A stretch of 64,000 bases of DNA from an archaeon (GTDB taxonomy: Archaea; Nanobdellota; Nanobdellia; SCGC-AAA011-G17; GW2011-AR17). The stretch lies in NCBI GenBank assembly GCA_018656555.1, contig JABHZQ010000023.1, positions 2,875 through 66,874 on the forward strand, read 5' to 3'. The position numbers and the translations under genes were made by a program. A model generated the notes under the pieces. The model saw only the letters and a program-made list of their open reading frames with translations, searched no databases and was not told where the DNA came from. This document shows positions 7,902 to 64,000 of the stretch, one piece after another. How positions within the stretch are numbered: position 1 is the stretch's first letter; every line of letters begins with the position of its first letter.

Positions 7902-7902
7902 T

Positions 7903-39926: not shown

Positions 39927-39958
39927 TTTTTATAGTTTTTTAGTATATAAATGTTTTG

Positions 39959-43378: not shown

Positions 43379-43395
43379 TATAATATCAAATAATT

Positions 43396-43408
43396 TAATT
43401 ATTTAAAA
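43396..43408 (-). promoter_or_regulatory. Archaeal TATA-like box (TTTAAATA), about 20-30 bp upstream of the paralog C start. The same sequence recurs upstream of paralog B at ~46917-46929.
   Basis: The minus-strand reading of 43379-43410 is atttttaaataattaaattatttgatattata followed by ATG. The same 32 bp precede the gene at 46900. Confidence 0.35.
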
Positions 43409-46900: not shown

Positions 46901-46938
46901 TATAATATCAAATAATTTAATTATTTAAAAAACTAACT

Positions 46939-49900: not shown

Positions 49901-50919
49901 CCATCTACACAATAAGCCCTATAATGTTGTGTTCCAATTCTATCTCTAAAACTTCCAGTAGGTCCCTCATATACACACCAAGAATCTAAATTATTTCTTG
50001 TTTTACCCAATTCAAAAATTTCAAAATCTCCTTTTTTATTATTGTAAACAGTATAAGAATTTAACATCTCAAAATCAGCAGAATCTTGAAGTTCTTGAGT
50101 TATAGTATCTCCAACTTTAAATTCAAAAGTATCACTACAAGCAGTTGATCTACATGTAGCTTCCAAATCCTCATTAACATAACAAGCTTGACTAGGATAA
50201 CTACAAGAGTCACCAGTTAACATTATATCTCCACAAGTATTAGTCTCATAAAATTCATGATCTATTGTACAATCTTCTTGAGTGTAAACACAATTACAAG
50301 AAGCAGTATAAGTTCCTGATTCTAATTCTTTTTGAATATCAGCACAACTCTTTCCTTCATAATAACCATATCCGGTAGCTGTGTCTGTAGAAAGAGAACC
50401 TCTTTCCATCAAACATTCATCCCCAGTTAAATAAGTACATCCAGTTTCAGAAACACAACAACCCATTGCATCAAGATTATTATACAAATTACAAGCTTCC
50501 TCAGTTGTTACACCATTATTCCAAACTGGAGTCTCTTCATAAGCATCATAAGTTGCATAACAATTAGGTTCTGTAGTAAATGAATATTCATTTCCAAATT
50601 GGCAACAACCTTTTGAACAAGCAGTAGTAGTACATTCTTCATCACTAGACCAAGTACCTCCTGCTTGAGTACAAGTATAATCAGGAACACCTTTAGAACA
50701 AACACCATCAGCAGAAACACAACAACCAATTGCACAAACAGTAGTTTCATTACAAGGAGAAGAATAAAATTCATCTGGAGCAGAACTACAAGCACCATCA
50801 TCAGTATAAACACAATACATACCTGTTGTCTTTTCCTTACAACAACCATCAACTGCCATAACAAAAGGAACTATAAGTAAAATAAATACTAGAATAATCA
50901 ACCCCTTTTCTAATTTCAT
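46939..50919 (-). CDS. Giant cysteine-rich secreted surface protein, paralog A (1326 aa)
   Basis: Signal peptide MKLEKGLIILVFILLIVPFVMA. GCC Cys modules, a DSWCVYEGPTGSFRDRIGTQHYRAYC core, CHLCDLP, and the C-terminal C.D..GN.N modules (YCEDVAGNRNETQISF; YYVICEDEFGNQNS). Confidence 0.7.
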   Translation of the reverse strand: MKLEKGLIILVFILLIVPFVMAVDGCCKEKTTGMYCVYTDDGACSSAPDEFYSSPCNETTVCAIGCCVSADGVCSKGVPDYTCTQAGGTWSSDEECTTTACSKGCCQFGNEYSFTTEPNCYATYDAYEETPVWNNGVTTEEACNLYNNLDAMGCCVSETGCTYLTGDECLMERGSLSTDTATGYGYYEGKSCADIQKELESGTYTASCNCVYTQEDCTIDHEFYETNTCGDIMLTGDSCSYPSQACYVNEDLEATCRSTACSDTFEFKVGDTITQELQDSADFEMLNSYTVYNNKKGDFEIFELGKTRNNLDSWCVYEGPTGSFRDRIGTQHYRAYCVDGEEVWENCGDLREEYCAMSFDENGNPDAKCISNNFEEYYTYPYHSGKWCSTSGSCSTTPDYNDAKDSWSEWSINYDNRFGEFYGEINQPIKSTEDWTYLYGVSTVPLGTYREDWTTTADDYCHAATFTIDYGFWDQGGGSDEEGYELITNAIGLRSEFIATSMDYCSSRGDCGINLNILGEEGQPDSFDITYNQEEIAGENSDASLGLGECFDLEDDHCSQAESYLQGTSFYSLYHSSRIPGASACMKASAANIRRYYVPILKNEGDLEINTVNDNFLSDFMFPSFLPLSRLYMYSAYNCYTTGGVDRLSKNLGLNYVEGSSAKENMAAYGLVTSNDIQRPYEQDGKSYLGGEVHSAKQEVGAIDGCMYDYIYDYSSSSDYDDDYLDYYTDAIETSYVCTEDAYKVSKEELLYNQLKSIKPWVMNTRSLRATSFGFDYASQYSNPLTFYEYEWEDNIHEGDNKKAARSVHWCEAWEPQDNGDNCHLCDLPSEEGGLWFSKDGKRIDGAACTASKCTSLGSYCKFIEGNRGSINHPSCVSEECILNESVQISQYDDALIDSTATSPLTIEIQKRTTNNPGYDATNIPPGYKVSFGVETNIVSRCKFVEDWRVQEILDQHEGVSTLGQLAAAYTDPEERYNLFMNPGVYEVPDWAVDAYEFKHNISYVFSNGEEKSFYVWCEDICGKTDDGIFEIGLKASEQDPTTYPGTYIHFDPASEQYAPSTAETITLQTYTDVPATCKYSSLESDNFDLMENDMDTCISPSANIIQGDYYCRDEISITDGPNNFYFLCQDQYGNVMSSSSPWTVTKSDPLLITQTSPEGIVSYKEIDLQVRTQAGAEAGKSVCYYKQSNQYTYDQMSESQDSDTLWVQSQTLTEGDYVYDIYCEDVAGNRNETQISFTMDVDEYPPEVDSLFYLSNMVYIITNEETTCEYEVSSFTFGSGFETTGSETTDHTFSVSPGISEYYVICEDEFGNQNSPLIVSLDYIL

Positions 50920-51577: not shown

Positions 51578-52281
51578 TCTGGAAATTTCTACTCCGAATG
51601 GGTGGATTCTTTGTTTTTGGTATTTCTATTCTCTTATTTGTAGTGGGATTATTCTTAGTTAACTTTCAAAGTAACCTAGAAAACTTTGATGGGATAGTCA
51701 ATAAATCTGTTGATAATTTCTTTGATGATAACAGAGAAGAGATTTTAGTAAATTTTGGTGTTGATTATGAAGATGAATGTGAAAATGGATTAATTTCAGC
51801 AGAAGATTGTGAAATGATGGATGTAATGATAGATGATGCCTTTATTTTAGCAAAAGAAGAATCTAAAGAAAGCATGAGTGTTTTATTTGAAGAGATAGGA
51901 TTTGAAGCCTATGATACTGACAGATTATTTGCTATTTCAATAATATTCTTTGTTATTGCTTTTTTCTTAGTATTCTATGGACATAGAAAAAGTTTTGTTA
52001 GAACATTTAGAGGATTTTCAATTCAAACTGGACTCTCCTTTTTACTACTATACATAGCCCTATCTGAATTGGTAAAAATGAAAATATCTGATTTATACTC
52101 AATGATAAACATGCCTATGGAAATGTCTGAATTAGCAATAGATCTTGTTCAGGTTTTAGTTGCAGAATTAATTTTTTATCCCATCCAACAAATGTTATTA
52201 CCTTTCTTAATAATCTCAATTAGTGGTTTTATTTTGTTTGTGATGTTTTTGATTTTAGCTTGGCAACATGTTGAAACTTAA
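51553..52281 (+). CDS. Hypothetical membrane protein
   Basis: N-terminal and C-terminal TM helices with an acidic central region. Confidence 0.35.
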   Translation: MVGVLEEMIWKFLLRMGGFFVFGISILLFVVGLFLVNFQSNLENFDGIVNKSVDNFFDDNREEILVNFGVDYEDECENGLISAEDCEMMDVMIDDAFILAKEESKESMSVLFEEIGFEAYDTDRLFAISIIFFVIAFFLVFYGHRKSFVRTFRGFSIQTGLSFLLLYIALSELVKMKISDLYSMINMPMEMSELAIDLVQVLVAELIFYPIQQMLLPFLIISISGFILFVMFLILAWQHVET

Positions 52282-53425
52282 CTTTATTTTTATGTATTAA
52301 GGGTTTTGTCATTATTGGTAACACCTTAAAAGGATCTCTATTTGTTTCTAAAGTAATATCTATTATTTCCTTAATAGTAGAATTATTCATATCTTTTGCC
52401 ATATTATTTAGAAGATTATTTCTAGTAATCCCCATCTTATACTGATTTACTAGTTTTTGAGTATTAAAAGAAATTATTCCAAAGTTTTTATCTATCTTCC
52501 CCACTGGAGTTTTACTCAACTCTCTTGTAAACTTAACAAATTCCCTTTCTTGTTCTCTATCAGTCTTAAACTTCTTATTAATATCATAAAATACTGGAGA
52601 CCAAGCTATTATAATCACAATTAATAGTAATAAGTAAAAATAAAAAGGTGCATCAAAAGTTGCAAAGTCAAATAAAAAGAAAAAACAAACAACCATTAAT
52701 ACCAAAGATATAATTACAAAAATTAAATATTTAATTTTAAACTTCAAAGAGAAAAAAATAGCTTTTGTTTCTCGCCATAGATTTTTTACCACTCTTCTTT
52801 TATGTTCTCTTAATGTAGATTCTGCTTTTTCCTTAAGATAAGCTAAAGTCTGTTGAGGATTATTTATCCTTTTTGCAAGATTTTGTAAAAACACTCTATA
52901 CCTATCAGAAGGAGTTAGTTGTGAAGTTTCTAATAAAGCTTCAGCCAAAGATGTTTTCTTTAACTGAGTAAAATTAATTATCCTTAATGCTTCTATCTTA
53001 GAATCTCTTGATTTCAATAAAGGTTTAAATAAATCAAGTTTAGTCAAACCAATTTCTGATAATGCAGCTAAAAGAGAGATTGTAAAGGGAAGATTTCTCT
53101 CAATTCTATTTCTTTTTTCATTAGCTTTTAGTTTCGGTACAATTAAGAATAACAATACTGAAATTATTACCATTACTGCAGTAATCATCAAAGGATAAAA
53201 CATTACATAGGCATATAATAAGATCACAGAAAGTGCAGAACCTATAGCTAATATCAAAAAAGTAGTCAAATACATTATACTAAGATAAGTAATTGATAAT
53301 ACTGGCATTCCAGAATAAACTATATTTTTCTGTAAATTATTATAAAATTTAGGAAATATTTTTATTGTAAAGTTAGTTAAAGGTTCAAAAGCCAAATTAG
53401 CTATTTTTACATATATTCCTTTCAT
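52229..53425 (-). CDS. Polytopic membrane protein with FlaJ/TadC/PilC (T2SS-F)-like topology; candidate filament-assembly platform
   Basis: TM block, cytoplasmic domain, second TM block, cytoplasmic domain. Translationally coupled (ATGA at 53422-53425) to the upstream FlaI-like gene in the order ATPase→membrane protein, as in flaI-flaJ / pilB-pilC. Confidence 0.4.
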   Translation of the reverse strand: MKGIYVKIANLAFEPLTNFTIKIFPKFYNNLQKNIVYSGMPVLSITYLSIMYLTTFLILAIGSALSVILLYAYVMFYPLMITAVMVIISVLLFLIVPKLKANEKRNRIERNLPFTISLLAALSEIGLTKLDLFKPLLKSRDSKIEALRIINFTQLKKTSLAEALLETSQLTPSDRYRVFLQNLAKRINNPQQTLAYLKEKAESTLREHKRRVVKNLWRETKAIFFSLKFKIKYLIFVIISLVLMVVCFFFLFDFATFDAPFYFYLLLLIVIIIAWSPVFYDINKKFKTDREQEREFVKFTRELSKTPVGKIDKNFGIISFNTQKLVNQYKMGITRNNLLNNMAKDMNNSTIKEIIDITLETNRDPFKVLPIMTKPLIHKNKVKFQHVAKLKSKTSQTK

Positions 53426-54573
53426 ATTAATCCTGCTCTTTTTAGGACAGCAGTTCTATCTTTATAATAAACATTTATTACCTGTCTAAAATCTTTTAGA
53501 TTTAGCTTATTATGGGTTAACACAAGTAACAGTTTAGTTCTTAACTTTAACTCATCATTTAATGTTTGAGTATTAAGAAATAGACTTTCTTTAGGATTTT
53601 GATAAAATTTATCACCCTTTTTTACAAATATTTCTTTCCCCTTCTCTTTTATCTTATATATAGTCTTATTCTCCACGTAAAAAACAAAGAAATTTTGTTC
53701 ATCTACAGTTTTAGACACCAATATAGGAGACCCATTGCCCAAGTAAGGAATATCTTTTATCAAAGCAAACTCTTCATTAGCTGCAGTATCAGAAAAAATA
53801 TACTCACAATTTTTATTTAAAGTAATATTTGTTTCATTAGTTAACACTCTTGAATTTGAGGGTAAAAAGATATTAGCAGTAGATAGTAAATTATCAGTTA
53901 ACATAATCGGTTTCCTATTCTCAATCAACATCCATAGAAAAGCAAGCATTTCTGGAGAAGCATTTTTATTCAATAAAAGTGAAATTGGATTCTTATCCTC
54001 TGTTTTCTTTGTAATTGTTATTGAGTTTTCTGTTCTCTCCACCACTATCCCTTTATTATCTTCTTCTACTATTGCTAACTTTTTACCTATCTTCTGAAAC
54101 CCATCTTCAGCCAATTGTATATTAGTTGTCAAGGTACCATATAAAACATGATTAATCATTGTAGGACCAGTTTTTTTACACACTATCTTCTGAATCATAG
54201 GATCTTCCATTAAAGGTTCTATTCTCCAAAGACCCAAAAACTCAATATATATCAAATAGAATATCTTTTGGTATTCTTCCTGTGTTGTTTTAATATGAAG
54301 TTCATCTTTTATTTTATCTATTGCTTCTTTTAGGTTGATTAATCTATTTTCAGCATAGATACTGAAATTCATCTGTTCAACCAACCCATTCTTTATTTTA
54401 TTATATTTTTCTTGATCCTCTGCAGTTAATTGAGGTTCAGTAACTTGGTATATATTTTGATAAATTCTAGCTGTAACAAAATTACTAAAAATCTCATAAG
54501 AAACCTGATTATTTTCTAGTTTTTCTGGCAAATGAGGTATTCTTTTGCTAGTTAAGAATGCTATACTCTCCAT
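53422..54573 (-). CDS. FlaI/PilB/VirB11-family secretion-ATPase homolog with degenerate Walker A, Asp-box and Walker B motifs (predicted catalytically inactive)
   Basis: NASPEMLAFLWMLIENRKPIML resembles the conserved ISPEMAA(F/Y)LWLAIE… segment that precedes Walker A in archaeal FlaI. The expected GxTGSGKTT is replaced by TDNLLSTAN. SRVLTNETNITL aligns to the ERIVTIEDTPEL Asp box, and PILVSKTVDEQ aligns to Walker B IIVGEVRGEE. The alignment is from memory and not computed. Confidence 0.4.
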   Translation of the reverse strand: MESIAFLTSKRIPHLPEKLENNQVSYEIFSNFVTARIYQNIYQVTEPQLTAEDQEKYNKIKNGLVEQMNFSIYAENRLINLKEAIDKIKDELHIKTTQEEYQKIFYLIYIEFLGLWRIEPLMEDPMIQKIVCKKTGPTMINHVLYGTLTTNIQLAEDGFQKIGKKLAIVEEDNKGIVVERTENSITITKKTEDKNPISLLLNKNASPEMLAFLWMLIENRKPIMLTDNLLSTANIFLPSNSRVLTNETNITLNKNCEYIFSDTAANEEFALIKDIPYLGNGSPILVSKTVDEQNFFVFYVENKTIYKIKEKGKEIFVKKGDKFYQNPKESLFLNTQTLNDELKLRTKLLLVLTHNKLNLKDFRQVINVYYKDRTAVLKRAGLI

Positions 54574-54661
54574 TTTTAGAATTCAGGGAGTTTTAGCTTA
54601 TATATATTTCGTCTTTTAGAATTCCAAAAAATATTTAAAGCCTATAAAAATTAGTCTCTGA

Positions 54662-57319
54662 ATGGATGGATTGCCTGAAAGTAATACTGAAGAGGTTTCT
54701 AGTGAGAAAGATATCTTACAAAAAAGAAAAGAACAGCTTCTAGCTAAATTTAAAGGCAATAAAAACTGGCTGGCTTATATCATTTTAATTGTTATTGTTT
54801 ACTTGGGATACTTTCTAAGAACTAGAAATCTAGCCTATTTAACAGATATAACAACTGGAAAATATATTCCATTAGCATTAGATCCATTTGCTTTTTTAAG
54901 ATATGTAGAATATCTAGTTGAAAATGGCTCTTGGATGACTTTTGATGCTCTTCGTTATTATCCTTGGGGATATGGTTTAACAAACGAGTTTAAGTTTTTG
55001 AGTTATCTAATTACCTATATGTATAAGATTTGGAGTTTTTTTGTACCTTCTATCACACTCGAGTATGTCCATGTTATGTACCCAGTTGTTTGTTTCATGA
55101 TTGCTATAGTATTCTTTTACTTATTTGTAAGAGATGTATTTGATTGGAGAGTTGGATTATTAGCTTCTGCATTCTTAACTGTCTTACCTGCCTATCTATA
55201 TAGAACAATGGCTGGATTTGCAGATAAAGAAAGTGCAGCTATGATGTTTATGTTTATTGGTTTGTACTTCTTTGTTAGGTATGTTAAAACCAAGAAATTA
55301 ACAAGCAAACTAATCCTTGCTGCAATTTCAGGTATCTCTATTGGTTTTATGGGTTTGATTTGGGGAGGAGTTAGTTTCATGTTTTTGGCAGTTGGAGGAT
55401 ATATTCTCTTAAATGTATTCTTTAACAATTTTAGTAAATCTGACTTTTATGGAATATTTGCATTTATAGCTGCTCTAGCCTTAACAATGTGGGTAGGTTA
55501 TCCAGAAAAATATTCAATTATTAACTTACTAACTTCAGATACTTCTGGAATTATGTTTTTAGCTTTTGCAGTTGCTCTAGTAAACTACATTGTTTTCCAA
55601 AAAGATCTATTAAAATTAAAATCTAAACTAAAATTTATCAACTTGCCACCAGGTGTTACCTCTTTAATTTTTATTGTTATCCTAGTATTCATTGCAGGTA
55701 TCTCTGCTTATGGTCTTGAATTTATCACAGGAAGAATATCTGGTTTATGGAGTACCATGATCAATACTCCTTCATCCAGATGGATTCTAACTGTTGCTGA
55801 ATCTCATCAACCTTACTTTATTGATGTAATCAATCAATTCAATTGGAAGTTTGTTGTTTTATTCTTCGCGGGTGCTACATTCCTATTCTATAGTATTGTA
55901 AGACATCTAAAAGAAAAATATTATCTAACTGGTGGATTTTTAGCTTTTATCTTATTATTTTCATTTAGCAGATATAAACAAACCTCTGTTCTAGATGGAG
56001 AAACAAATCTAGCTCTTGCTTTATACGCTGGATCTTTAGCCATATTTGTAATTGGATTAGCTTACTATTATTTATACTCTTACTACAAAGATAAAGAAAC
56101 TTATCTTCAATTTAATAATTTTGATAAATCATTTGTATTAATCTTAGTTGTATTCTTTTTCCTACTTATTGGAGCTAGAACAGCGATTAGGTTATTATTT
56201 TCATTTGCACCAATTGCTGCTATTCTAAGTGCATTTGCAGTATTCTTTATTATTGACAAATCAAAAGTGTTCAAGGACAATATTTATAGAATTGGAACAA
56301 TTGCAGTGATTGCAGCTTTAGCAATATTTATGTTATTCAGTTTTTACAATACTACATTAAGTCAAGCTAAATATACTGGCCCTAGTTATAATCAACAGTG
56401 GCAAGTCGGAATGGATTGGGTTAGAGATAGTACTCCTACAGATGCAGTATTTGCACACTGGTGGGATTATGGTTACTGGGTGCAATATGGTGGAGAAAGA
56501 GCTACACTATCTGATGGAGGAAATGCTTTAGGAGATATTAACCATTTTGTTGGAAGACATCTATTAACTGCTGAAGATGAAAATGAAGCCCTAGAATACT
56601 TAGCTGCTAGAAACACAACTCATGTCTTAATGATAAGTGATGAAATAGGAAAATATGGTGCTTACTCTTCAATTGGTGCTGATGAAAATTATGATAGATA
56701 CTCTTGGATTAATACTTACTCTTTAGATTATGATCAAATGCAAGAAACAAGAAATGGAACTATTTTCACATATGTTGGGGGTACTGTTTTAGATGAAGAT
56801 GTAATCTATCAAGATCAAGTTTACCCTGCTATGAGTGCAGGAATTGCAGGATTTGTTATTCCTACAATAGTTGAAAATAATGGTACAGAAGTAACCTATG
56901 AGCAACCTACTGCAGTGATCTCTTACCAAGGTCAACAAGTTGGTATGCCTTTGAAATGTATATACATAGAATACAGTAGTGAATATATCGAGTTTGATAC
57001 TGATGGAGAATATTTAGATGCTTGTTTACATTTAATACCTACATATAGTGGAGAGGATTATAATCCTATTGGAGCTGGACTCTACCTTTCACCTAGAGTT
57101 TCTAAGGGATTATTTGGAAGACTTTATTTAATGGAGTTAGAGGAGGAGTTTCCACACTTTGAATTAGCTTATACTGATGAGAGCAGCATGCCTCTTTCTA
57201 TATACAATGGACAATTAATTGGACCACTTAAAATTTGGGAAGTAACCTATCCAGATGATTTAGTTATTCCTCAAGAATATTTTGGTACAGAAGCTGATCC
57301 TAGTGTAATTATGGTTTAA
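54662..57319 (+). CDS. aglB: Oligosaccharyltransferase AglB (STT3 family), 885 aa
   Basis: 13-TM N-terminal domain with the catalytic WWDYGYW (WWDYG) motif, followed by a C-terminal soluble domain. Confidence 0.85.
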   Translation: MDGLPESNTEEVSSEKDILQKRKEQLLAKFKGNKNWLAYIILIVIVYLGYFLRTRNLAYLTDITTGKYIPLALDPFAFLRYVEYLVENGSWMTFDALRYYPWGYGLTNEFKFLSYLITYMYKIWSFFVPSITLEYVHVMYPVVCFMIAIVFFYLFVRDVFDWRVGLLASAFLTVLPAYLYRTMAGFADKESAAMMFMFIGLYFFVRYVKTKKLTSKLILAAISGISIGFMGLIWGGVSFMFLAVGGYILLNVFFNNFSKSDFYGIFAFIAALALTMWVGYPEKYSIINLLTSDTSGIMFLAFAVALVNYIVFQKDLLKLKSKLKFINLPPGVTSLIFIVILVFIAGISAYGLEFITGRISGLWSTMINTPSSRWILTVAESHQPYFIDVINQFNWKFVVLFFAGATFLFYSIVRHLKEKYYLTGGFLAFILLFSFSRYKQTSVLDGETNLALALYAGSLAIFVIGLAYYYLYSYYKDKETYLQFNNFDKSFVLILVVFFFLLIGARTAIRLLFSFAPIAAILSAFAVFFIIDKSKVFKDNIYRIGTIAVIAALAIFMLFSFYNTTLSQAKYTGPSYNQQWQVGMDWVRDSTPTDAVFAHWWDYGYWVQYGGERATLSDGGNALGDINHFVGRHLLTAEDENEALEYLAARNTTHVLMISDEIGKYGAYSSIGADENYDRYSWINTYSLDYDQMQETRNGTIFTYVGGTVLDEDVIYQDQVYPAMSAGIAGFVIPTIVENNGTEVTYEQPTAVISYQGQQVGMPLKCIYIEYSSEYIEFDTDGEYLDACLHLIPTYSGEDYNPIGAGLYLSPRVSKGLFGRLYLMELEEEFPHFELAYTDESSMPLSIYNGQLIGPLKIWEVTYPDDLVIPQEYFGTEADPSVIMV

Positions 57320-57320
57320 A

Positions 57321-58322
57321 ATGAAAAAACTATCTATGAGTACAAAAGCATTTAGTAATATATTATTATGTAAGGGCTTAGGTTTTCAAAGACCTACCCA
57401 AGTTAGCTTTGCTATTACTAATAGATGTAACTTAAAATGTAGTTATTGTTATGGTGACTATTCTTGTAGAAAAGACAAAGATTTTACTTTAGATCAATTA
57501 AAATCTATATTCTTTGATCTAAAAAAAATGGGTATGACTCAGATATTCTTAACTGGTGGTGAACCCCTTCTGAGAAAAGATATTGACAAAATTGTAGACT
57601 ATCTAAAAGAACTAAATATAGATATTGGAATTGTTACTAATGCTATACTTGCACCCCTTCACTTAAAGACCTTAAAAAAAGTAGATCGAGTCTTAGTTAG
57701 CTTAGATGGAAATAAGAAAAAAAATGACCTAAACCGAGGTGAAGGTACACATAACAAAATATTAAAATCCCTAGAATTAATGCATAAAGAAGGAATAAAA
57801 TTCTCCTTAAAAATTGTATTTAACAAAAACAGCTATGATCAATTAAATTATATCCTAAAATTAGCTGAAAAATACAAAACAGATGTAGAAACCATAATAC
57901 CTTATGAAAACTTTGGAGATAAATCACTCTATCTTACTGAAACACAAAAGAAAAAGTTACTAACAAAAATTATGAAATATGTAAAAGAAGGTAAGAGAAT
58001 AAAATTTAGTCATGTTACTCACAAAATGTCTACAGATGTTTTCTTAAAACATAATAAAAGTATTATCAATGAAGATAATAAAAAATACCCGTCTTGTGTA
58101 GCTGGAAAGCTTTATTTGTTCATTGATGCTAATGGTGATGTCTATCCCTGTAATCAATTAATTGGATCTTTTAAACCCTATAATATTCATGACGATGGTC
58201 TGAAGAGCGCAATTAAACACACATTAACTAGAAAGTGTAAAATTTGTTGCATACCTTTTTTAAATGAAAAAAGATTTTTGAATTCACTTCAACCAGAGGT
58301 AGTATTATCTAAATTAAAATGA
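57321..58322 (+). CDS. Radical SAM/SPASM-domain enzyme (paralog family member 5), starting 2 nt after the aglB stop
   Basis: CNLKCSYCYG (Cx3Cx2C), LTGGEPLLR, and C-terminal CVAG…CNQL…CKICC cysteines. Confidence 0.7.
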   Translation: MKKLSMSTKAFSNILLCKGLGFQRPTQVSFAITNRCNLKCSYCYGDYSCRKDKDFTLDQLKSIFFDLKKMGMTQIFLTGGEPLLRKDIDKIVDYLKELNIDIGIVTNAILAPLHLKTLKKVDRVLVSLDGNKKKNDLNRGEGTHNKILKSLELMHKEGIKFSLKIVFNKNSYDQLNYILKLAEKYKTDVETIIPYENFGDKSLYLTETQKKKLLTKIMKYVKEGKRIKFSHVTHKMSTDVFLKHNKSIINEDNKKYPSCVAGKLYLFIDANGDVYPCNQLIGSFKPYNIHDDGLKSAIKHTLTRKCKICCIPFLNEKRFLNSLQPEVVLSKLK

Positions 58323-59092
58323 AAACAATTGTAATTACTGGAGCTTCAGAAGGTATTGGTAGAAAGTTAGCATTTAGATTAGCTAGTAAGAATGTTAATC
58401 TAGTCTTAGGATCTAGAAGCCTAGATAAATTAGAATCAATTTGTGAAAAATTAAAACATAGATGTAATAGTTGTTTAGCTTTAAAGTTAGATCTCGCTGA
58501 GGATAAAACGATTATTAACTTTTTTAAAACTGTTAAAAAGAAATATAAAACTGTAGATGTTTTAGTAAACAATGCAGGAATAGGATATTATTCTCAAGTT
58601 AAAGATTTAGATATGAAAAAAAGTAGATATCTATTTGAAGTCAATTTCTTTGGATTAGTCCTTTGTACAAGAGAATGTTTAAAATTAATGAAAAAAGACT
58701 CTAAAATTCTTAATGTTACTTCAGAAGTTTCTTATAGGGGAATGCCCGTAATGTCTATCTACTGTGCTTCAAAAGCAGCAGTGAAATCTTTTTCAGAAAG
58801 TTTAAGAGTTGAAGTCAAAGATAGAGGCATAGAGGTTTTAATTATCTATCCAGGATATATAAGTACAGATTTCCATAAGACTACTAACGAAATATCAAAT
58901 TTAAAAAGACCAATATACAAAGGTAGAAGTCCTGAAGATCTTGCTATTTACATGGAAAGAATGATTAAACATAATAAAAAAGAAGGATTACCTTTCTTTG
59001 AAGGTAAGGTTTTAAGACTATTAGCTGCTCTTGCTCCTTGGGCTCTAGATTACATATTTCATAAAAAACACAAAAAAGAACTTAATTCTTAA
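58319..59092 (+). CDS. Short-chain dehydrogenase/reductase (SDR)
   Basis: TGASEGIGRKLA (TGxxxGIG) motif, NNAG, and a YCASK catalytic Y…K. The ATGA-type overlap with the radical SAM suggests an operon. Confidence 0.75.
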   Translation: MKTIVITGASEGIGRKLAFRLASKNVNLVLGSRSLDKLESICEKLKHRCNSCLALKLDLAEDKTIINFFKTVKKKYKTVDVLVNNAGIGYYSQVKDLDMKKSRYLFEVNFFGLVLCTRECLKLMKKDSKILNVTSEVSYRGMPVMSIYCASKAAVKSFSESLRVEVKDRGIEVLIIYPGYISTDFHKTTNEISNLKRPIYKGRSPEDLAIYMERMIKHNKKEGLPFFEGKVLRLLAALAPWALDYIFHKKHKKELNS

Positions 59093-59957
59093 TTTTCTCT
59101 GTAATGAAACTCAAATAAAACAAGAACAAATACAAAAATAAGAATATTGCAACTAAAGGAAATCTTATTGTTTTTAGACCATGAACAAGTACATTCTTAC
59201 TAGACCACAATCTAGTCTTAATAAAACTCCCTGCAGGACTTGAATTCTTCTTCTTAAAATAATAAGCTCCTTTCCCTCTAATCCACACCCACTTCAAAAA
59301 AGACTTAAAACTATCTCTTGCAGGATGATAGATAAACACATTTTTATTATAAATTATTTTATAATCATTATTTATTATATTCAATCCCATTATTGTATCT
59401 TCACCAAACTGAACAGGCATGCTTGTGTCAAACAATCCAACCTTATCTAAAACCTTCTTAGGAATTACACAATTACAAGTTACTAACTGTCTTGTCTCAC
59501 CATTAGCCTTTACTGGCCAAATCTTTTCAAACCCAATTGAAGCACCAGCAGGGAATCCCAAATCAGATATAGACTCTCCTACTGCAGTAGAACTTAACAT
59601 ATGTGCTCTTCCTTGAAGAATCTTATTCTCATTATCTTTATGGCTATAGAAATCATCTATCAATTCCAACCAATTCTCAGGAACAATACAATCTGAATCT
59701 GTAAATATAATATATTCTCCCTCTGCTTTCCCTATTCCAATATTTCTAGCAGTTGCAGGTCCAGCATTCTTAGGGGCTCTTATTAGTCTTACTTTACCTC
59801 TTGCTATTTCTGCCAACTCTTTATACACTTCTAAAGGAGAATAATCATCTACAATTATTGCTTCATGTTCTACTTTCTGTTTCCCCAAACTATCAATAAG
59901 TTTTTTAGCCCTTTTTACATCATTGTAATGAGGGATAATAATGGTATATTTACTCAT
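59082..59957 (-). CDS. GT2 glycosyltransferase
   Basis: YTIIIPHYND…AIIVDDYSP…DSD. Confidence 0.7.
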   Translation of the reverse strand: MSKYTIIIPHYNDVKRAKKLIDSLGKQKVEHEAIIVDDYSPLEVYKELAEIARGKVRLIRAPKNAGPATARNIGIGKAEGEYIIFTDSDCIVPENWLELIDDFYSHKDNENKILQGRAHMLSSTAVGESISDLGFPAGASIGFEKIWPVKANGETRQLVTCNCVIPKKVLDKVGLFDTSMPVQFGEDTIMGLNIINNDYKIIYNKNVFIYHPARDSFKSFLKWVWIRGKGAYYFKKKNSSPAGSFIKTRLWSSKNVLVHGLKTIRFPLVAIFLFLYLFLFYLSFITEKIKN

Positions 59958-59989: not shown

Positions 59990-61132
59990 TTGTGTTATAG
60001 TACTATAGAAAGCTATATTAATAAAATTGGATTTTTACAGGGCATGAGAAGGCATATATCCAAGAGGATTGTAATACATGTAGGCTTTAGCTGTAATGAA
60101 AGATGTGTATTCTGTTATTATAGAGATTCTCTAGCAAGAGGAGATGTAAAAGACCTTACTCTAGAACAAATAAAAAAGAGATTAAGAATTGGAAGGAAAT
60201 TTGGTAAAAATGAAGTAGATCTTAGTGGTGGAGAACCTACAATAAGAAAAGATATTTTTGAAATAATTAGATATGCTAAAAAGATAGGCTACAAAACAGT
60301 ATCAATCATAACAAATGGTTTAATGCTAGCTAAAAAAGAATTCTGTGAAAAACTAGTAGATGCTGGTTTAAACGATATCCTCTTCTCATTACATGGTCCA
60401 GACAAAGAAATGCATGACTACCTAACCTCTGTTAAGGGAAGTTATGATAAACTAATGAAAGGAATGGATTATATGTCAGAATTAGGTATCAACCTAAGAA
60501 TAAACACAGTTATCAGTAACCTAAACTACAAACAATTAGACAAATACTTCCTACTTGTAAAGAAATTCAATCCTAATGCCATCAACTTACTCATATTCAA
60601 TCCAGCTGAAGAGGCGATTAACTATAAAACTGATGATGTTACCGTCGAGAATTATAGTTTAATAGGTGAAGAACTGGTTAAAGCCCTAGACAAACACAGT
60701 AAGAATTTTAATAAAATAAATATTAGATTTCTACCTTTCTGTTTAGTAAAAGGCCATGAAGATAAAATAAAAACAATGTGGCAAAAAATCTACGAAAGAG
60801 AAGAATGGGATCCCTTTCTATTCATGAGATTCAGAAAAAATGATTGGTATGCTTACAGTTTTCCTTTTGCTGGTTTTTTCATTGCCCTATTCAAATACAA
60901 ATACTACAAAGTTCCTTACACAGGAAAAAAGAGTTTCTACACTTATTTCTGTGAATTAATACAAAGTGCAAGGATCTACTACAACAAAAGACATGCACCA
61001 GGATGTAAAAACTGTTCTCTAAAAGAAATCTGTCCTGGACTACCTAAAGCTTATATTAAAAAATTCAAAAAAGCTGAAGTTTTCCCTTATGAAGGAAAGA
61101 AAATAACTGATCCTAGTCATTTCGATGAATAA
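59990..61132 (+). CDS. Radical SAM/SPASM-domain enzyme (paralog family member 6)
   Basis: CNERCVFCYY (Cx3Cx2C), SGGEPTIR, and C-terminal CPGL cysteines. Confidence 0.65.
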   Translation: MCYSTIESYINKIGFLQGMRRHISKRIVIHVGFSCNERCVFCYYRDSLARGDVKDLTLEQIKKRLRIGRKFGKNEVDLSGGEPTIRKDIFEIIRYAKKIGYKTVSIITNGLMLAKKEFCEKLVDAGLNDILFSLHGPDKEMHDYLTSVKGSYDKLMKGMDYMSELGINLRINTVISNLNYKQLDKYFLLVKKFNPNAINLLIFNPAEEAINYKTDDVTVENYSLIGEELVKALDKHSKNFNKINIRFLPFCLVKGHEDKIKTMWQKIYEREEWDPFLFMRFRKNDWYAYSFPFAGFFIALFKYKYYKVPYTGKKSFYTYFCELIQSARIYYNKRHAPGCKNCSLKEICPGLPKAYIKKFKKAEVFPYEGKKITDPSHFDE

Positions 61133-62012
61133 TTCCAAAGAATCCAGCAAACAATACTTCTGCAATAACATACCAAAGTCTTGAAACTAAAGAAAGTAAG
61201 ATTGCCATTGGTGCACCTACAAAAGGACTTAACAAAAGTACTAAAGCACCCTCTCTAACACCTACACCACCAGGTGCTACTATAGCCAAAACTCCAGCAA
61301 CAGTACTTATTCCAACAATTCCAGGTAAAACATAAATTATATCATAAGGCAAAGGAGTTATAGATCTAAACAAGAAATATATTGCCATAGCATCAATAAG
61401 CCATCTTCCCAAATGCATAACAAGTATTTCTAAAATATCCCTATAATGTAAGTCTAATTTTATTGGTTTTCTTTTAATAAGTTTCAATCCAAAATTTAAT
61501 ATTCTTTTAAACAAACTAGGTATTAATAACACCAAGATTACAGGTATTAAAGACATAGAAATAATTATCAACCACAAAGGTATATTATCAAAAAAGAATA
61601 TTGCAGGTATAAATAGTATAATTCCACTTACAACCAATAATGCAACTTCAAGTATAATACTAGTAATAATAATCTTTTTATCTACTCCTTCCTTACCACC
61701 TAAATAGATTCTTCCCACTAGAAGCATAACTTTCCCAGGTACATATCTTCCCAAAATAGAAGCAAAATAAACCTTATTAGCTTTGTAAAAAGGCAAAGGA
61801 GATTTCAACTTCTTCAAAATAACTCTCCAAACATTGGCCAACATTAAATAATCCAAAAACAATAATACAAAAGAGATTACAAGAAATACTGGATTAAATA
61901 CAATAGAACTCCAATCTATTTGATTATAATGTAATAGAAAATACCAAACCAAGAAGAAGATTATAACTGCTGCCAAAGACCACTTTAAAATATGTTCCAA
62001 ATACTTCTTCAT
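61113..62012 (-). CDS. Flippase-like / lysylphosphatidylglycerol-synthase-TM-domain (UPF0104) membrane protein
   Basis: Eight TM helices and a GG…GVREG C-terminal motif typical of this family. Weak. Confidence 0.4.
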   Translation of the reverse strand: MKKYLEHILKWSLAAVIIFFLVWYFLLHYNQIDWSSIVFNPVFLVISFVLLFLDYLMLANVWRVILKKLKSPLPFYKANKVYFASILGRYVPGKVMLLVGRIYLGGKEGVDKKIIITSIILEVALLVVSGIILFIPAIFFFDNIPLWLIIISMSLIPVILVLLIPSLFKRILNFGLKLIKRKPIKLDLHYRDILEILVMHLGRWLIDAMAIYFLFRSITPLPYDIIYVLPGIVGISTVAGVLAIVAPGGVGVREGALVLLLSPFVGAPMAILLSLVSRLWYVIAEVLFAGFFGIIHRND

Positions 62013-62044: not shown

Positions 62045-63562
62045 TTATGCTTTGTCTCTAAAAATTAAGATAATTGGCTGAGTTTGTTCTGCATCCAGGA
62101 AATAAGCTTGCACTAATTCCAAACTATCTTCATTCTCTACAATATAATCGGAATTACAAGCATAACTATAAAAATCAAAAACAATGTATTCTGCATCATA
62201 AATTTCTCTTGCCTCATCAAAACTTGATATATTTTGATAACTAAACCCTATAGCATCTCTTTCAGAATAATATAATAAAGGAACAGACTGCGAACAAGCC
62301 AATACAACATCCCCATATTCAGTATTTTCCTTCAGCCACTCACCAGCCTCTCGTTCATAATAAAAAGATTGACTCTTCTGTTCAATAGAATCATTAGCAT
62401 AAGCAACACCTGCTCCTGCACCCCAAATTAACAAAATAGCAATAACAACAATACCTGTCTCTTTGTTATATTTCTTTACAGAATTATACAAAACCATTGC
62501 CCCTAATCCTACTATTACACTTATTGCTGGAAATGCTGGAAACCCCAACCTAGGTTCATACATATACCCTTGTGTTGCAATTAAAGTCCCAACTATTAAC
62601 AATTGAGTTAAAGCCCACAATATGATAAAATAATCCTTCTTCAATTTACTCGACTTATCCTTCCAGATTAAATCAAATCCTAATGCTACCTTGAAAAAAT
62701 AACTTAAACCAATTATTGCCAATATCAAAAATCCCCACTTGAGTAAACTCGGCATCTGTGTAAAGAAAATAAACAAATCAGACATAACCTCACCAATAGG
62801 CCTCTGCCAATCAGGTACAAAATCATCAGTAGGTGTCACATCCTCTATCTGATGTCCTATCCTAGGATATATAGAATCATATACAACATAGTTCCTTATG
62901 AAAAATGGTGTTGCAGCTATTAAAATAATTGCAATAAATATCCAAAACTTCTTATTTTTCAAAAACTTAAGTTTCTCAGTAGTAAGTAAAAACAATGCAA
63001 TAAATGGAATTATAAATCCAACAGCCTCATAAATAAATATTCCAGAACCAATCAATACCCCAGAAACAATCAGATACTTCGTCTTCTTCTGTACATATCC
63101 TTTGTAAAAACATAAAGCAGCCCCAATCCAAAATACCAACCCTATCACACCCATAGAGATTCTTGCTGTCCAAAAAATATGCAACCAATAACTTGACATT
63201 ACTAAAGCAGCTATCAAACCTACTTGCTTACTATAAAACTCCTTACCAACCAAATAAGTTAAGTAAATCCCACCAACTGAAAATAAAATCTCAATAAACC
63301 TAATTATTGACTCTCCTCCACCCAACCAATATATTGGACCATACAAAACAGCAATCCCCCAAGCTCTCCAAGGTGGTGCTTGATTTGGAGTACCCAAAGC
63401 CCAACTCTTTGCTATAGATAAATAATCAGCCTCATCCCACCAAAGTGCTTGATTCTGATATTTTAAGAAAAAGAATAACCTAACAGCAAAAGCTAGTATC
63501 AAAATTCCAAGTAAATAGTATTTTCCATAAACATCAAAATGGCCCTTAGACTCCCCTTCCAT
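62045..63562 (-). CDS. GT-C superfamily membrane glycosyltransferase (ArnT/PMT-like)
   Basis: ALWWDEADY (DE motif) in the first loop, more than 10 TM helices, and a soluble C-terminal domain. Confidence 0.5.
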   Translation of the reverse strand: MEGESKGHFDVYGKYYLLGILILAFAVRLFFFLKYQNQALWWDEADYLSIAKSWALGTPNQAPPWRAWGIAVLYGPIYWLGGGESIIRFIEILFSVGGIYLTYLVGKEFYSKQVGLIAALVMSSYWLHIFWTARISMGVIGLVFWIGAALCFYKGYVQKKTKYLIVSGVLIGSGIFIYEAVGFIIPFIALFLLTTEKLKFLKNKKFWIFIAIILIAATPFFIRNYVVYDSIYPRIGHQIEDVTPTDDFVPDWQRPIGEVMSDLFIFFTQMPSLLKWGFLILAIIGLSYFFKVALGFDLIWKDKSSKLKKDYFIILWALTQLLIVGTLIATQGYMYEPRLGFPAFPAISVIVGLGAMVLYNSVKKYNKETGIVVIAILLIWGAGAGVAYANDSIEQKSQSFYYEREAGEWLKENTEYGDVVLACSQSVPLLYYSERDAIGFSYQNISSFDEAREIYDAEYIVFDFYSYACNSDYIVENEDSLELVQAYFLDAEQTQPIILIFRDKA

Positions 63563-63597: not shown

Positions 63598-64000
63598 TCA
63601 TTTTGTACTCTCTACTCTCACCCAAACCTCTTCAAACTTCTTCTGTTTCAAATTAATGTCTTGATAAATCTTAAACCAAAGATATAATCTACACATATAC
63701 AACCACAAAGTCCAAATTACTTCTTTTGGAGTTCTTGGATAAGTCAAAGGCTTATACCATCCTTCTGCAATCTCTTTCCAAAAAGACCTCATTCTTTTTC
63801 TTTGAGGAAAATATTGTTTTAATTGGTTATATCCTCCAGCAGATCTCTTTTTCTGTATTATCCAATCCTTAAAGTTGGTAGGATATTTCACATAAACTTT
63901 TGCCTCTGGTGCATATCCAATCTTATATCCTTTCTCATGAATCATATGAGTCATAACAGCATCATCAGATAGAGCATCTTCAGGTAAACTATCTAATACA
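63598..64000 (-). CDS. GT2 glycosyltransferase, C-terminal part only; the ORF stays open to the window edge
   Basis: …LPEDALSDDAVMTHMIHEKGYKIGYAPEAKVYV…QKKRSAGG resembles the C-terminal catalytic region of processive GT2 enzymes (a Q..RW-like motif). No stop codon between 63955 and 64000 in frame. Confidence 0.5.
   Translation of the reverse strand, partial: VLDSLPEDALSDDAVMTHMIHEKGYKIGYAPEAKVYVKYPTNFKDWIIQKKRSAGGYNQLKQYFPQRKRMRSFWKEIAEGWYKPLTYPRTPKEVIWTLWLYMCRLYLWFKIYQDINLKQKKFEEVWVRVESTK

What the first reader, a model, noticed from the sequence alone, without database searches (positions are those of the whole stretch)
54662..59092. An aglB–radical SAM–SDR operon
The oligosaccharyltransferase AglB ends at 57319. 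A radical SAM/SPASM gene starts at 57321, 2 nt later. An SDR gene then starts with a 4-nt overlap at 58319.

Co-transcription of the OST with a radical SAM enzyme and an oxidoreductase points to a dedicated sugar-tailoring step tied directly to transfer of the glycan to protein. One possibility is generation of a keto or modified sugar on the lipid-linked oligosaccharide. This arrangement is not part of any described Agl cluster that I know.
Basis: partly seen in the sequence, partly recalled or inferred. Interest (0 to 1): 0.6.

Follow-up and report, generated by a model that had tools for sequence, protein, structure and literature searches.

The report
Lineage-specific radical-SAM glycosylation island beside aglB
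In this marine Woesearchaeon (DPANN archaeon), the protein-glycosylating enzyme AglB is followed by a radical SAM gene and a reductase gene, but that adjacency is recent and found in one lineage only; the pair really belongs to a small movable sugar-tailoring cassette, one of several radical-SAM-rich glycosylation loci in this genome.

Summary
No promoter or terminator signal separates them, so co-transcription is likely. Tight spacing is the rule here, though: 19 of 37 co-directional gene pairs in the window overlap or lie within 5 nt.

The aglB-rSAM-SDR arrangement is not conserved. I recovered 80 Woesearchaeal aglB loci, 71 with enough downstream sequence to judge. Only a 93%-identical relative shares the arrangement. 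The next closest (56%) couples aglB to a PMT_2 glycosyltransferase, and the others carry varied glycosylation genes.

The conserved partners of rSAM1-SDR are a second radical SAM (rSAM2) and a GT2, arranged rSAM2-rSAM1-SDR-GT2 in relatives. A GT2-rSAM2-LPG_synthase_TM triad also occurs elsewhere without aglB. Distant homologues of both radical SAMs sit in bacterial glycan clusters. rSAM1 has a single 4-Cys auxiliary-cluster motif (twitch-like, not full SPASM) and is not specifically BtrN-like.

Sugar tailoring is supported. A dedicated OST-coupled step is not. The window holds six radical SAM genes, each beside a glycosyltransferase or methyltransferase gene. I rate this a new variant of the known aglB-centred glycosylation island, of moderate interest.

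The parts
54574..54661 (+). Divergent intergenic region upstream of aglB. It carries an A/T-rich TATA-like element (AAAAAATATTTAAAG, about 54626-54640) roughly 25 nt before the ATG. It is probably the promoter of the aglB-rSAM1-SDR unit and may give a leaderless mRNA.
   Evidence: Sequence read directly. The inference is from general archaeal promoter architecture and has not been tested.
54662..57319 (+). aglB: STT3-family oligosaccharyltransferase, 885 aa.
   Evidence: Pfam STT3 59.9 bits and STT3-PglB_core 34.6 bits. The WWDYGYW motif is present. It aligns to human STT3A across LDPF/FDPY, AGFADKE/AGSYDNE and WWDYGY. 80 Woesearchaeal orthologues share 35-93% identity. It is the only STT3 gene in the window.
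57321..58322 (+). rSAM1: radical SAM enzyme, 333 aa. It has CxxxCxxC (C36, C40, C43) plus four invariant C-terminal Cys (C259, C277, C306, C309), consistent with one auxiliary [4Fe-4S] cluster of twitch type.
   Evidence: Pfam Radical_SAM 91 bits. Alignment A1. AlphaFold model with pLDDT 91.9. Foldseek top hits are SuiB, BlsE, SkfB, CteB, anSME, MoaA and viperin. No NCBIfam cut-off is passed.
58319..59092 (+). Classical SDR, 257 aa, with TGASEGIG, Ser/YxxxK and an Arg in 'GSRS' after strand 2 (NADP(H)-type by rule of thumb). Its start overlaps the rSAM1 stop (ATGA). It is the conserved partner of rSAM1.
   Evidence: Pfam adh_short 174.5 bits. The best NCBIfam hit, PRK06181, scores 176.6 against a cut-off of 215. 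The rSAM1-SDR pair is conserved in L006, L013, L014 and L022 at 55-80% SDR identity.
59082..59957 (-). GT2 glycosyltransferase, 291 aa, with a DSD motif and a hydrophobic C-terminal segment. It converges on the SDR gene with an 11-nt overlap.
   Evidence: Pfam Glycos_transf_2 82.3 bits. The best NCBIfam hits, MftF (92.5/280) and EpsD, fall below cut-off. Homologues follow the SDR in L013 (37%) and precede rSAM2 in L178 (53%).
60044..61132 (+). rSAM2: second radical SAM, 362 aa from ATG 60044 (a TTG at 59990 would give 380 aa). It has CxxxCxxC plus invariant C233, C321, C324 and C330. Its C-terminal domain has no structural match.
   Evidence: Pfam Radical_SAM 106.6 bits. Gene callers use the 362-aa start. 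Alignment A2. AlphaFold pLDDT 87.9. The best Foldseek hit is BlsE over the core only, 228 columns.
61113..62012 (-). LPG_synthase_TM family membrane protein (MprF-TM / AglD-C-terminal / HpnL superfamily), 299 aa. A candidate flippase-like component.
   Evidence: Pfam PF03706 65.6 bits against a cut-off of 33.4. HpnL scores only 15 bits against 195.65. A 40%-identical homologue occupies the same position in L178.
62045..63562 (-). PMT_2-family GT-C glycosyltransferase, 505 aa, lying upstream of the LPG_synthase_TM gene on the same strand with a 32-nt gap.
   Evidence: Pfam PMT_2 57.2 bits against a cut-off of 26.1. PMT_2 homologues lie within 10 kb of aglB in many relatives and overlap aglB in L015.

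Best explanation
The finding is the left edge of a lineage-specific glycosylation island in a marine Woesearchaeon (DPANN).

Shown:
- aglB encodes the N-oligosaccharyltransferase.
- The rSAM1-SDR pair is a conserved two-enzyme unit. Its conserved genomic partners are a second radical SAM (rSAM2) and a GT2, not aglB.
- GT2-rSAM2-LPG_synthase_TM forms a core triad that also occurs elsewhere without aglB.
- Both radical SAM families recur in glycan biosynthesis clusters of other archaea and bacteria.

Inferred:
- The cassette builds and tailors one unusual sugar on the cytoplasmic face, as a nucleotide sugar or on a lipid carrier. The GT2 attaches it, the two radical SAMs and the NADP(H)-type SDR modify it, the LPG_synthase_TM protein helps move it across the membrane, and the PMT_2 GT-C enzyme transfers it outside the cell to a glycan or protein. 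This would parallel the Haloferax AglD/AglR/AglS branch and bacterial ArnC/ArnT.
- The most likely chemistry for rSAM1+SDR is radical hydrogen abstraction on a sugar hydroxyl-bearing carbon to give a keto (or keto-deoxy) intermediate, which the SDR then reduces. The net result would be deoxygenation or epimerisation, as in AprD4/AprD3. I hold this specific chemistry at only about 25%.
- In this lineage the pair has landed 1 nt after aglB and is probably co-transcribed with it. That is a recent arrangement, not a conserved coupling to the transfer step.
For: - ORFs and junctions. Domain identities.
- Organism: record titles of 80 aglB loci name Woesearchaeota/Nanoarchaeota.
- aglB census: only L022 (93% identity, identical junction) has rSAM1-SDR after aglB. 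L015 (56%) has PMT_2 overlapping aglB by 11 nt. Elsewhere the next gene is Glycos_transf_4 (16 loci), a PTPS_related membrane protein (11), PMT_2 (6), a methyltransferase (5), GT2 (4), Epimerase_2 (4), and so on.
- rSAM1 relatives: L013 and L014 (60-61%) read rSAM2-rSAM1-SDR(-GT2) on one strand. L006 (57%) has rSAM1-SDR behind a non-coding A/T-rich gap.
- Triad: L178 has GT2(-)/rSAM2(+)/LPG_synthase_TM(-) at 53/68/40% identity in the same layout. It lacks aglB, rSAM1 and SDR, and sits next to a sequon-rich surface protein.
- Distant homologues in glycan clusters: L010, L175 (Kuenenia), L176, L177 and L181 contain GT1/GT2/GT4, NTP_transferase, epimerase/dehydratase, Bac_transf, Wzx-like and PMT_2 genes.
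- Auxiliary-cluster cysteines.
- Structure: BlsE, a sugar-acid decarboxylase, is among the best matches for both radical SAMs.
- No TATA-like box or T-run in the 3' end of aglB.
- Known analogies: AglD/AglR/AglS and the aglB-centred agl cluster (PMC3871713); AprD4/AprD3 (PMC5461906).
Against: - There is no biochemical or transcript evidence.
- None of the six accessory proteins reaches a curated NCBIfam cut-off, so substrates are unknown.
- The GT2 is not recognisably a polyprenol-phosphate sugar synthase: ArnC scores 12 bits, and GtrB in PDB scores 22 bits.
- The closest structural neighbours of rSAM1 include several peptide- or protein-modifying enzymes (SuiB, SkfB, CteB, anSME).
- Only five loci outside this population show the rSAM1 subfamily at >=46% identity, and most contigs are short, so module conservation rests on few observations.
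- At 45% identity, rSAM2 (L179) has no glycosylation neighbours.
Confidence: 0.6

Rival explanations
1. aglB-rSAM-SDR is a dedicated operon in which the radical SAM and SDR modify the lipid-linked oligosaccharide immediately before, or in concert with, its transfer by AglB.
For: There is a 1-nt gap and an ATGA overlap, with no promoter or terminator signal between the genes. The same arrangement occurs in L022.
Against: L022 is 93% identical, so it is the same population. Of the 71 aglB loci with downstream sequence, the 70 more distant ones all lack the arrangement. The closest rSAM1 relatives have rSAM2 or a promoter-like gap upstream instead. Tight spacing is the genomic norm, at 19 of 37 pairs.
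Confidence: 0.1
2. The GT2-rSAM2-LPG_synthase_TM core, with rSAM1-SDR, remodels a membrane glycolipid head group rather than a protein glycan. The analogies are hopanoid HpnI (GT2)/HpnJ (radical SAM)/HpnL (LPG_synthase_TM family), which make a cyclitol ether, and calditol synthase in Sulfolobus.
For: The triad has the same three protein classes and is conserved as a unit in L178. HpnL belongs to the same InterPro family as AglD/MprF-TM (bioRxiv 10.1101/2025.07.29.667474). The SDR's best curated match and its hydrophobic C-terminus would suit a lipophilic substrate.
Against: HpnL scores 15 bits against a cut-off of 195.65. HpnJ and HpnI are not among the reported hits, and rSAM2 lacks the N-terminal extension of HpnJ-type enzymes. 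The triad neighbours a GT-C enzyme and aglB here and a sequon-rich surface protein in L178. My recollection of calditol synthase was not tested.
Confidence: 0.15
3. The radical SAMs are peptide or protein maturases (RiPP-like or anSME-like), and the GT2 glycosylates the modified peptide, as in mycofactocin (MftC/MftF) or glycocin systems.
For: The best NCBIfam hits for rSAM1 include the peptide maturases WgkB, StsB and MftC. The best hit for the GT2 is MftF. Foldseek top hits include SuiB, SkfB, CteB and anSME.
Against: All scores are far below cut-off (for example MftC 88/265 and MftF 92.5/280). The cluster has no room for a precursor-peptide gene, since the gaps are <=90 nt. rSAM1 has only a 20-residue N-terminal helix before the barrel and no RRE-like domain. 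Homologues sit among nucleotide-sugar and GT genes.
Confidence: 0.05
4. rSAM1-SDR process the polyprenol/dolichol carrier lipid itself, for example by redox tailoring of a scavenged isoprenoid, so that AglB has a usable carrier.
For: The pair is adjacent to aglB. The SDR is of a type often active on lipophilic alcohols and has a hydrophobic C-terminal tail. DPANN archaea generally lack lipid synthesis (background knowledge, not tested here).
Against: The pair travels with GT2 and rSAM2, not with aglB. Distant homologues lie among nucleotide-sugar enzymes in bacteria that make their own carriers. No other aglB locus carries the pair.
Confidence: 0.05

Closest known systems
aglB-centred agl gene islands of Archaea (e.g. 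Haloferax volcanii HVO_1517-HVO_1531; PMC3871713)
   Same: The oligosaccharyltransferase gene is embedded among glycosyltransferases, sugar-modifying enzymes and flippase-like genes. Island content varies between close relatives (PMC11407970), as seen here across 80 Woesearchaeal loci.
   Different: No described Agl pathway contains radical SAM enzymes. This island has at least two in the window and a B12-type one just beyond its end. The organism is an uncultured DPANN archaeon.
Haloferax AglD / AglR / AglS branch, and bacterial ArnC / ArnE-F / ArnT. A single sugar is loaded on a polyprenol phosphate, flipped, and transferred outside by a GT-C enzyme.
   Same: The window has the same parts list: a GT2, an LPG_synthase_TM domain (the family that InterPro names after AglD) and a PMT_2 GT-C enzyme, all adjacent. 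The pathway logic is described in PMC3871713.
   Different: The GT2 and the TM protein are separate genes. The GT2 is not detectably ArnC/GtrB/DPM1-like. Two radical SAMs and an SDR are interposed. No orthology to AglD, AglR or AglS was tested.
AprD4 / AprD3 (radical SAM diol dehydratase plus NADPH-dependent reductase; C3' deoxygenation of aminoglycosides; PMC5461906)
   Same: A radical SAM enzyme is genetically paired with an NAD(P)H-type reductase in a carbohydrate pathway. The pair here is translationally coupled and conserved in five loci.
   Different: Homology to AprD4 or AprD3 was not tested. The substrate and reaction here are unknown. The resemblance is one of pathway logic only.
BtrN (twitch-domain radical SAM dehydrogenase of 2-deoxy-scyllo-inosamine)
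   Same: rSAM1 has a radical SAM core plus four C-terminal cysteines in a C-x17-C ... C-x2-C pattern, compatible with one fully ligated auxiliary cluster. That BtrN has this pattern is my recollection, not a test.
   Different: BtrN is absent from the phmmer hits against PDB at E<=1e-3 and from the top 50 Foldseek matches. SuiB, BlsE, SkfB, CteB, anSME, MoaA and viperin are all closer.
BlsE (cytosylglucuronate decarboxylase, radical SAM acting on a sugar acid)
   Same: It is the best or near-best structural match for both radical SAMs (rSAM1 TM 0.69/0.70; rSAM2 rank 1). It is also the best PDB sequence match for rSAM2, at 67 bits.
   Different: Sequence identity is 16-22%. The NCBIfam BlsE model scores 81 bits against a cut-off of 400. 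The C-terminal 130 residues of rSAM2 are unmatched.
Hopanoid side-chain genes HpnI / HpnJ / HpnL
   Same: The trio is GT2 + radical SAM + LPG_synthase_TM-family membrane protein.
   Different: HpnL scores 15 bits against a cut-off of 195.65. There are no HpnI or HpnJ hits, and the host is an archaeon without hopanoid genes in view.

Membership tests
STT3/AglB oligosaccharyltransferase | STT3 N-terminal membrane domain and STT3/PglB/AglB core domain above Pfam gathering scores | tested here: met
   PF02516 scores 59.9 bits (cut-off 24.5). PF21436 scores 34.6 bits (cut-off 23).
STT3/AglB oligosaccharyltransferase | WWDYG catalytic motif and conserved acidic residues in the first external loops | tested here: met
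   HWWDYGYW is present. LDPF and AGFADKE align with FDPY and AGSYDNE of human STT3A.
STT3/AglB oligosaccharyltransferase | Membership of the archaeosortase-A-associated subfamily TIGR04154 | tested here: not met
   129.3 bits against a cut-off of 450.
STT3/AglB oligosaccharyltransferase | Transfer of a lipid-linked glycan to Asn in N-x-S/T | not testable with these tools
   This requires biochemistry or glycoproteomics.
Radical SAM superfamily | CxxxCxxC cluster motif and a Radical_SAM domain above the gathering score | tested here: met
   rSAM1 has C36/C40/C43 and scores 91 bits. rSAM2 has C17/C21/C24 and scores 106.6 bits.
   There is no PF13186 hit at E<=1e-3 for rSAM1 or rSAM2. Only four C-terminal Cys are invariant in each family. 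A weak SPASM hit is on record only for the 46% homologue P0005.
Twitch-type radical SAM (one auxiliary cluster) | Abridged SPASM fold with one auxiliary [4Fe-4S] cluster | tested here: inconclusive
   The four invariant Cys lie around a predicted beta-hairpin and helix. Structural neighbours are SPASM/twitch enzymes. No cluster can be modelled or measured here.
BtrN-like sugar dehydrogenase | Specific sequence or structural relatedness to BtrN | tested here: not met
   BtrN is absent from the PDB phmmer hits and from the top 50 Foldseek hits.
AprD4/AprD3-type deoxygenation pair | A radical SAM genetically coupled to an NAD(P)H reductase | tested here: met
   ATGA overlap. The pair is conserved in L006, L013, L014 and L022.
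AprD4/AprD3-type deoxygenation pair | Homology to AprD4/AprD3 and diol-dehydratase activity | not tested
   No AprD4 or AprD3 sequence or structure was available to compare. Activity needs an assay.
AglD/AglR/AglS-like (ArnC/ArnT-like) lipid-phosphate sugar branch | GT2, LPG_synthase_TM (AglD-family TM) domain and PMT_2 GT-C encoded together | tested here: met
   PF00535 82.3 bits, PF03706 65.6 bits and PF13231 57.2 bits, in adjacent genes.
AglD/AglR/AglS-like (ArnC/ArnT-like) lipid-phosphate sugar branch | The GT2 is a polyprenol-phosphate sugar synthase (DPM1/ArnC/GtrB type) | tested here: inconclusive
   ArnC model: 12 bits against 529. GtrB in PDB: 22 bits. The best hits are MftF and EpsD, both below cut-off.
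Hopanoid HpnI/HpnJ/HpnL side-chain module | Matches to the HpnL, HpnJ and HpnI models at curated scores | tested here: not met
   HpnL scores 15 bits against 195.65. No HpnI or HpnJ appears among the families shown for the GT2 or the radical SAMs (all 25 for the GT2; the best 25 of 68-84 for each radical SAM).
Mycofactocin system (MftC/MftF) | MftC and MftF at curated scores, plus a precursor peptide gene | tested here: not met
   MftC scores 88.3 against 265. MftF scores 92.5 against 280. There is no space for a small ORF in the cluster.

The most novel reading that the evidence does not exclude
A portable cassette (GT2 + radical SAM + AglD-family membrane protein, optionally with a radical SAM/SDR pair) brings radical chemistry into archaeal surface-protein glycosylation. 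It would produce an unusual deoxy, branched or carbocyclic sugar on a lipid carrier. A GT-C enzyme would then add that sugar outside the cell to glycans installed by AglB. This would be the first radical-SAM-dependent step in any protein N- or O-glycosylation pathway, and a source of strain-level surface diversity in host-dependent DPANN archaea. The window has six radical SAM genes next to glycosyltransferase or methyltransferase genes.
Probability: 0.3. Interest if true: 0.65.

Novelty: new variant of a known kind. Interest (0 to 1): 0.4.

Why it matters
Archaeal N-glycans are chemically very diverse, yet every pathway worked out so far uses conventional sugar enzymes. This Woesearchaeal window places six mutually divergent radical SAM genes directly against glycosyltransferase or methyltransferase genes. 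That hints at radical-based sugar tailoring in the surface glycans of an uncultured, host-dependent archaeon, and related radical SAMs occur in bacterial glycan clusters. If confirmed, it would add a new enzymatic class to protein glycosylation. It would also give candidates (rSAM1+SDR, rSAM2) for unusual sugar chemistry that can be expressed and assayed. The narrower claim, a conserved aglB-rSAM-SDR operon coupling tailoring to transfer, does not hold, which saves effort on that model.

Tried and rejected
Only about 7 of 80 loci were in-family, and none had aglB. It added little.
2. The sigma-70 promoter and intrinsic-terminator scan returned 48 sites against 49.3 expected and 0 terminators. 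It is uninformative for an archaeon, so I replaced it with a direct search for TATA-like boxes and T-runs.
4. BtrN-like assignment: rejected as a specific claim.
5. RiPP or mycofactocin-like reading: rejected for lack of a precursor ORF, lack of an RRE domain and sub-threshold scores.
6. Hopanoid-like Hpn membership: rejected.
7. 'Insertion between aglB and PMT_2' relative to L015: not claimed, because the two PMT_2 proteins are only 32% identical against 56% for AglB.
8. Sequon enrichment in the window's giant secreted proteins as indirect support for heavy N-glycosylation: not seen. They have 0.3-0.6 sequons per 100 aa against 0.8-1.0 expected.
9. The Kuenenia S-layer O-glycan paper (PMC5088730) was checked as a possible link to the Kuenenia homologue cluster. 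It does not mention radical SAM genes.
10. Whether radical SAM genes are enriched near aglB: 15 of 80 loci have one within 10 kb, but I had no background rate, so I make no claim.

Full report
**Observation.**
The three ORFs exist exactly as described: 54662-57319 (885 aa), 57321-58322 (333 aa) and 58319-59092 (257 aa), all on the + strand. The sequence shows aglB's TAA at 57317-57319, a single A, then ATG at 57321. An ATGA is shared by the radical SAM stop and the SDR start.

Pfam identifies STT3 plus the STT3/PglB/AglB core, Radical_SAM, and adh_short. AglB carries WWDYGYW and aligns with human STT3A across the conserved acidic loop motifs. It is the only STT3 gene in the window.

The 'SPASM' label is not borne out. 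There is no PF13186 match, and only four C-terminal cysteines are invariant across 24 family members: C259, C277, C306 and C309. That fits one auxiliary cluster of twitch type.

The tight junctions are typical of this compact genome. Of 37 co-directional neighbouring ORF pairs in the window, 19 overlap or lie within 5 nt.

**Organism and wider locus.**
The exact rSAM1 protein occurs on marine contigs from Saanich Inlet and Line P at 200 m. A scan of species-representative genomes with AglB returned 80 orthologous loci at 35-93% identity. Most are titled Woesearchaeota, Nanoarchaeota or Nanoarchaeia (a few 'archaeon' or 'Methanosarcinales'). The window is about 30% G+C.

The finding is only the left edge of a larger block:
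- GT2, 59082-59957 (-)
- a second radical SAM, rSAM2, 60044-61132 (+)
- an LPG_synthase_TM-family membrane protein, 61113-62012 (-)
- a PMT_2 GT-C glycosyltransferase, 62045-63562 (-)

In the 93%-identical relative L022 the island continues past the window's right end with a GT2, a B12-binding radical SAM and a GT4.

**Is aglB-rSAM-SDR conserved?**
It is not. Of the 80 aglB loci, 71 have at least 1.2 kb of downstream sequence. Only L022, which shares the identical 1-nt junction, has rSAM1-SDR after aglB.

In the next closest relative, L015 (56% AglB identity), aglB overlaps a PMT_2 gene by 11 nt. Elsewhere the immediately downstream gene is one of the following:

| Downstream gene | Loci |
|---|---|
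| Glycos_transf_4 (AglH-like phosphosugar transferase) | 16 |
| PTPS_related membrane protein | 11 |
| PMT_2 | 6 |
| Methyltransferase | 5 |
| GT2 | 4 |
| UDP-GlcNAc 2-epimerase | 4 |
| Wzx-like flippase | 2 |
| NAD-dependent epimerase | 2 |
| Unrelated radical SAM with an N-terminal extension | 1 on the same strand (L083), 1 convergent (L053) |

So aglB sits in a variable glycosylation island, as is known for other archaea (PMC3871713; PMC11407970).

**What rSAM1-SDR actually travels with.**
The closest rSAM1 relatives outside the population are few: 57-61% identity in three clusters and 46% in one.
- L013 and L014 read rSAM2-like, then rSAM1-like, then SDR, then (in L013) GT2, all on one strand. 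Identities to the window's genes are 49% (rSAM2), 60-61% (rSAM1), 55-57% (SDR) and 37% (GT2).
- In L006, rSAM1-SDR keep their 4-nt overlap. They are preceded by at least 20 nt of non-coding A/T-rich sequence with stops in all frames, and followed by unrelated genes.

rSAM2 has more relatives.
- In L178 (68% identity), the GT2(-)/rSAM2(+)/LPG_synthase_TM(-) triad is preserved in the same layout at 53/68/40% identity. It has no aglB, rSAM1, SDR or PMT_2 nearby. It sits beside an NAD-dependent epimerase and an 800-aa protein with a signal peptide and a C-terminal anchor that is crowded with N-x-S/T sequons.
- In L181 (50%), rSAM2 lies between GT4 genes, with a sulfotransferase, a Wzx-like flippase and a pyruvyl transferase nearby.
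- At 45% identity (L179) the glycosylation context is gone.

**Distant homologues.**
rSAM1 homologues at 31-35% identity occur in bacteria, including Kuenenia, a deltaproteobacterium and others. They lie in large glycan clusters that contain GT1/GT2/GT4, NTP_transferase, epimerase/dehydratase, Bac_transf, PMT_2, methyltransferases and several further radical SAMs. This supports a carbohydrate substrate rather than a peptide.

**Protein-level clues.**
- rSAM1 folds confidently (pLDDT 91.9). Its nearest solved structures are SuiB, BlsE (TM 0.69/0.70), SkfB, CteB, anSME, MoaA and viperin. BtrN appears neither there nor in the PDB sequence search, so the 'BtrN-like dehydrogenase' idea has no specific support.
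- rSAM2 has pLDDT 87.9 and invariant C233, C321, C324 and C330. It matches BlsE best, but only over the core barrel. Its C-terminal ~130 residues have no structural counterpart.
- The SDR is a complete classical SDR (TGxxxGIG, Ser, YxxxK). An Arg after strand 2 usually signals NADP(H), suggesting a reductase role. This is read from the sequence and is an inference.
- None of the six accessory proteins reaches any curated NCBIfam cut-off.

**Mechanistic reading.**
*Shown:* the gene content, the order, the conservation pattern and the cluster contexts.

*Inferred:*
- The cassette assembles and tailors a sugar at the cytoplasmic face. The LPG_synthase_TM protein, whose family InterPro names after AglD, helps present it outside. 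The PMT_2 GT-C enzyme transfers it to a glycan or protein. This parallels Haloferax AglD/AglR/AglS.
- For rSAM1+SDR I favour radical oxidation or dehydration of a sugar carbon followed by NADPH-dependent reduction, by analogy with AprD4/AprD3. That is pathway logic, not demonstrated homology, and I hold it at about 25%.
- aglB-rSAM1-SDR are probably one transcript here. There is a TATA-like element upstream of aglB, and no TATA-like box or T-run in aglB's last 180 nt. The census shows this linkage to be recent.

**A broader pattern.**
The left end of the window (250-15420) is a second glycosylation region with GT2 x4, PMT_2, Glycos_transf_4, a DegT aminotransferase, methyltransferases and four more radical SAM genes. 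All six radical SAMs in the window are mutually divergent, at 22-37% identity. Each touches a glycosyltransferase or methyltransferase gene. Radical SAM enzymes are therefore a general feature of this organism's glycan genes, not something tied to aglB.

**Novelty.**
The aglB-centred, strain-variable glycosylation island is a known kind. The radical SAM content is not part of any described Agl pathway that I could find, and the enzymes fall outside all curated families. I classify this as a new variant of a known kind and give it moderate interest (0.4). The most novel reading still open is radical-SAM-dependent sugar tailoring in archaeal surface glycosylation, carried on a portable cassette. 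I put that at about 0.3.

Noticed in passing
window 250-15420: This is a second, larger glycosylation region. It contains four GT2 genes, a PMT_2, a Glycos_transf_4 (AglH-like), a DegT aminotransferase, two methyltransferases, a DUF362+ferredoxin protein and four more radical SAM genes (1218-2300, 4341-5444, 7903-9084, 14356-15420). Several of these overlap a GT or MT gene. All six radical SAMs in the window are only 22-37% identical to each other.
   Followed up: partly
L022 7507-10921 (beyond the window's right end in the 93%-identical relative); window 63598-63954: The aglB island continues with a Glyco_transf_21-like GT2, a B12-binding radical SAM and a GT4. The window's last ORF (63598-63954, -) is probably the truncated start of that continuation.
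   Followed up: partly
L178 8583-10985: An 800-aa protein with a signal peptide and a C-terminal membrane anchor is densely packed with N-x-S/T sequons. It lies directly beside the conserved GT2-rSAM2-LPG_synthase_TM triad and is a candidate glycoprotein substrate.
   Followed up: no
window 35220-50919 (-): Four tandem genes encode paralogous secreted proteins of 1139-1326 aa, interrupted only by a 255-aa ORF (39159-39926). They have signal peptides and a conserved C-terminal motif YYIICED.FGNQ.S, with no Pfam match for the one tested. Sequons are not enriched: 0.3-0.6 per 100 aa against 0.8-1.0 expected.
   Followed up: partly
window 30190-32505 (-): A 771-aa protein matches the S_layer_C family and has an acidic Glu/Ala-repeat C-terminus. 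It is the likely S-layer protein and a probable AglB substrate.
   Followed up: no
window 24661-25917 (-) and 26044-26141 (-): A phage-integrase-family gene lies next to a 98-nt tRNA that Rfam detects (46.9 bits) but ARAGORN misses. This may be an intron-containing tRNA used as an integration site.
   Followed up: no
window 52229-54573 (-): Two genes are transcribed divergently from aglB across an 88-nt gap. They give weak, sub-threshold matches to the archaellum/type IV pilus assembly proteins ArlJ/FlaJ (50 bits) and FlaI (49 bits). Pilins and archaellins are classic AglB substrates.
   Followed up: no
L067 10001-15380: One Woesearchaeal genome carries two aglB paralogues in tandem, at 47% and 42% identity to the query.
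   Followed up: no
L176 7901-11081: Three tandem paralogues of the rSAM1 family (29-33% identity to rSAM1) sit in a deltaproteobacterial glycan cluster. They are followed by two GT2 genes and a B12 radical SAM.
   Followed up: no
L022 2228-2998: In the near-identical relative, the SDR is only 80% identical to the window's SDR, whereas its neighbours are 93-96% identical. This suggests locally faster divergence or a recombination patch.
   Followed up: no
L010 11542-11664: A 40-aa ORF lies between radical SAM genes in a bacterial multi-rSAM/GT2/PMT_2 cluster. It could be a precursor peptide or a spurious gene call.
   Followed up: no
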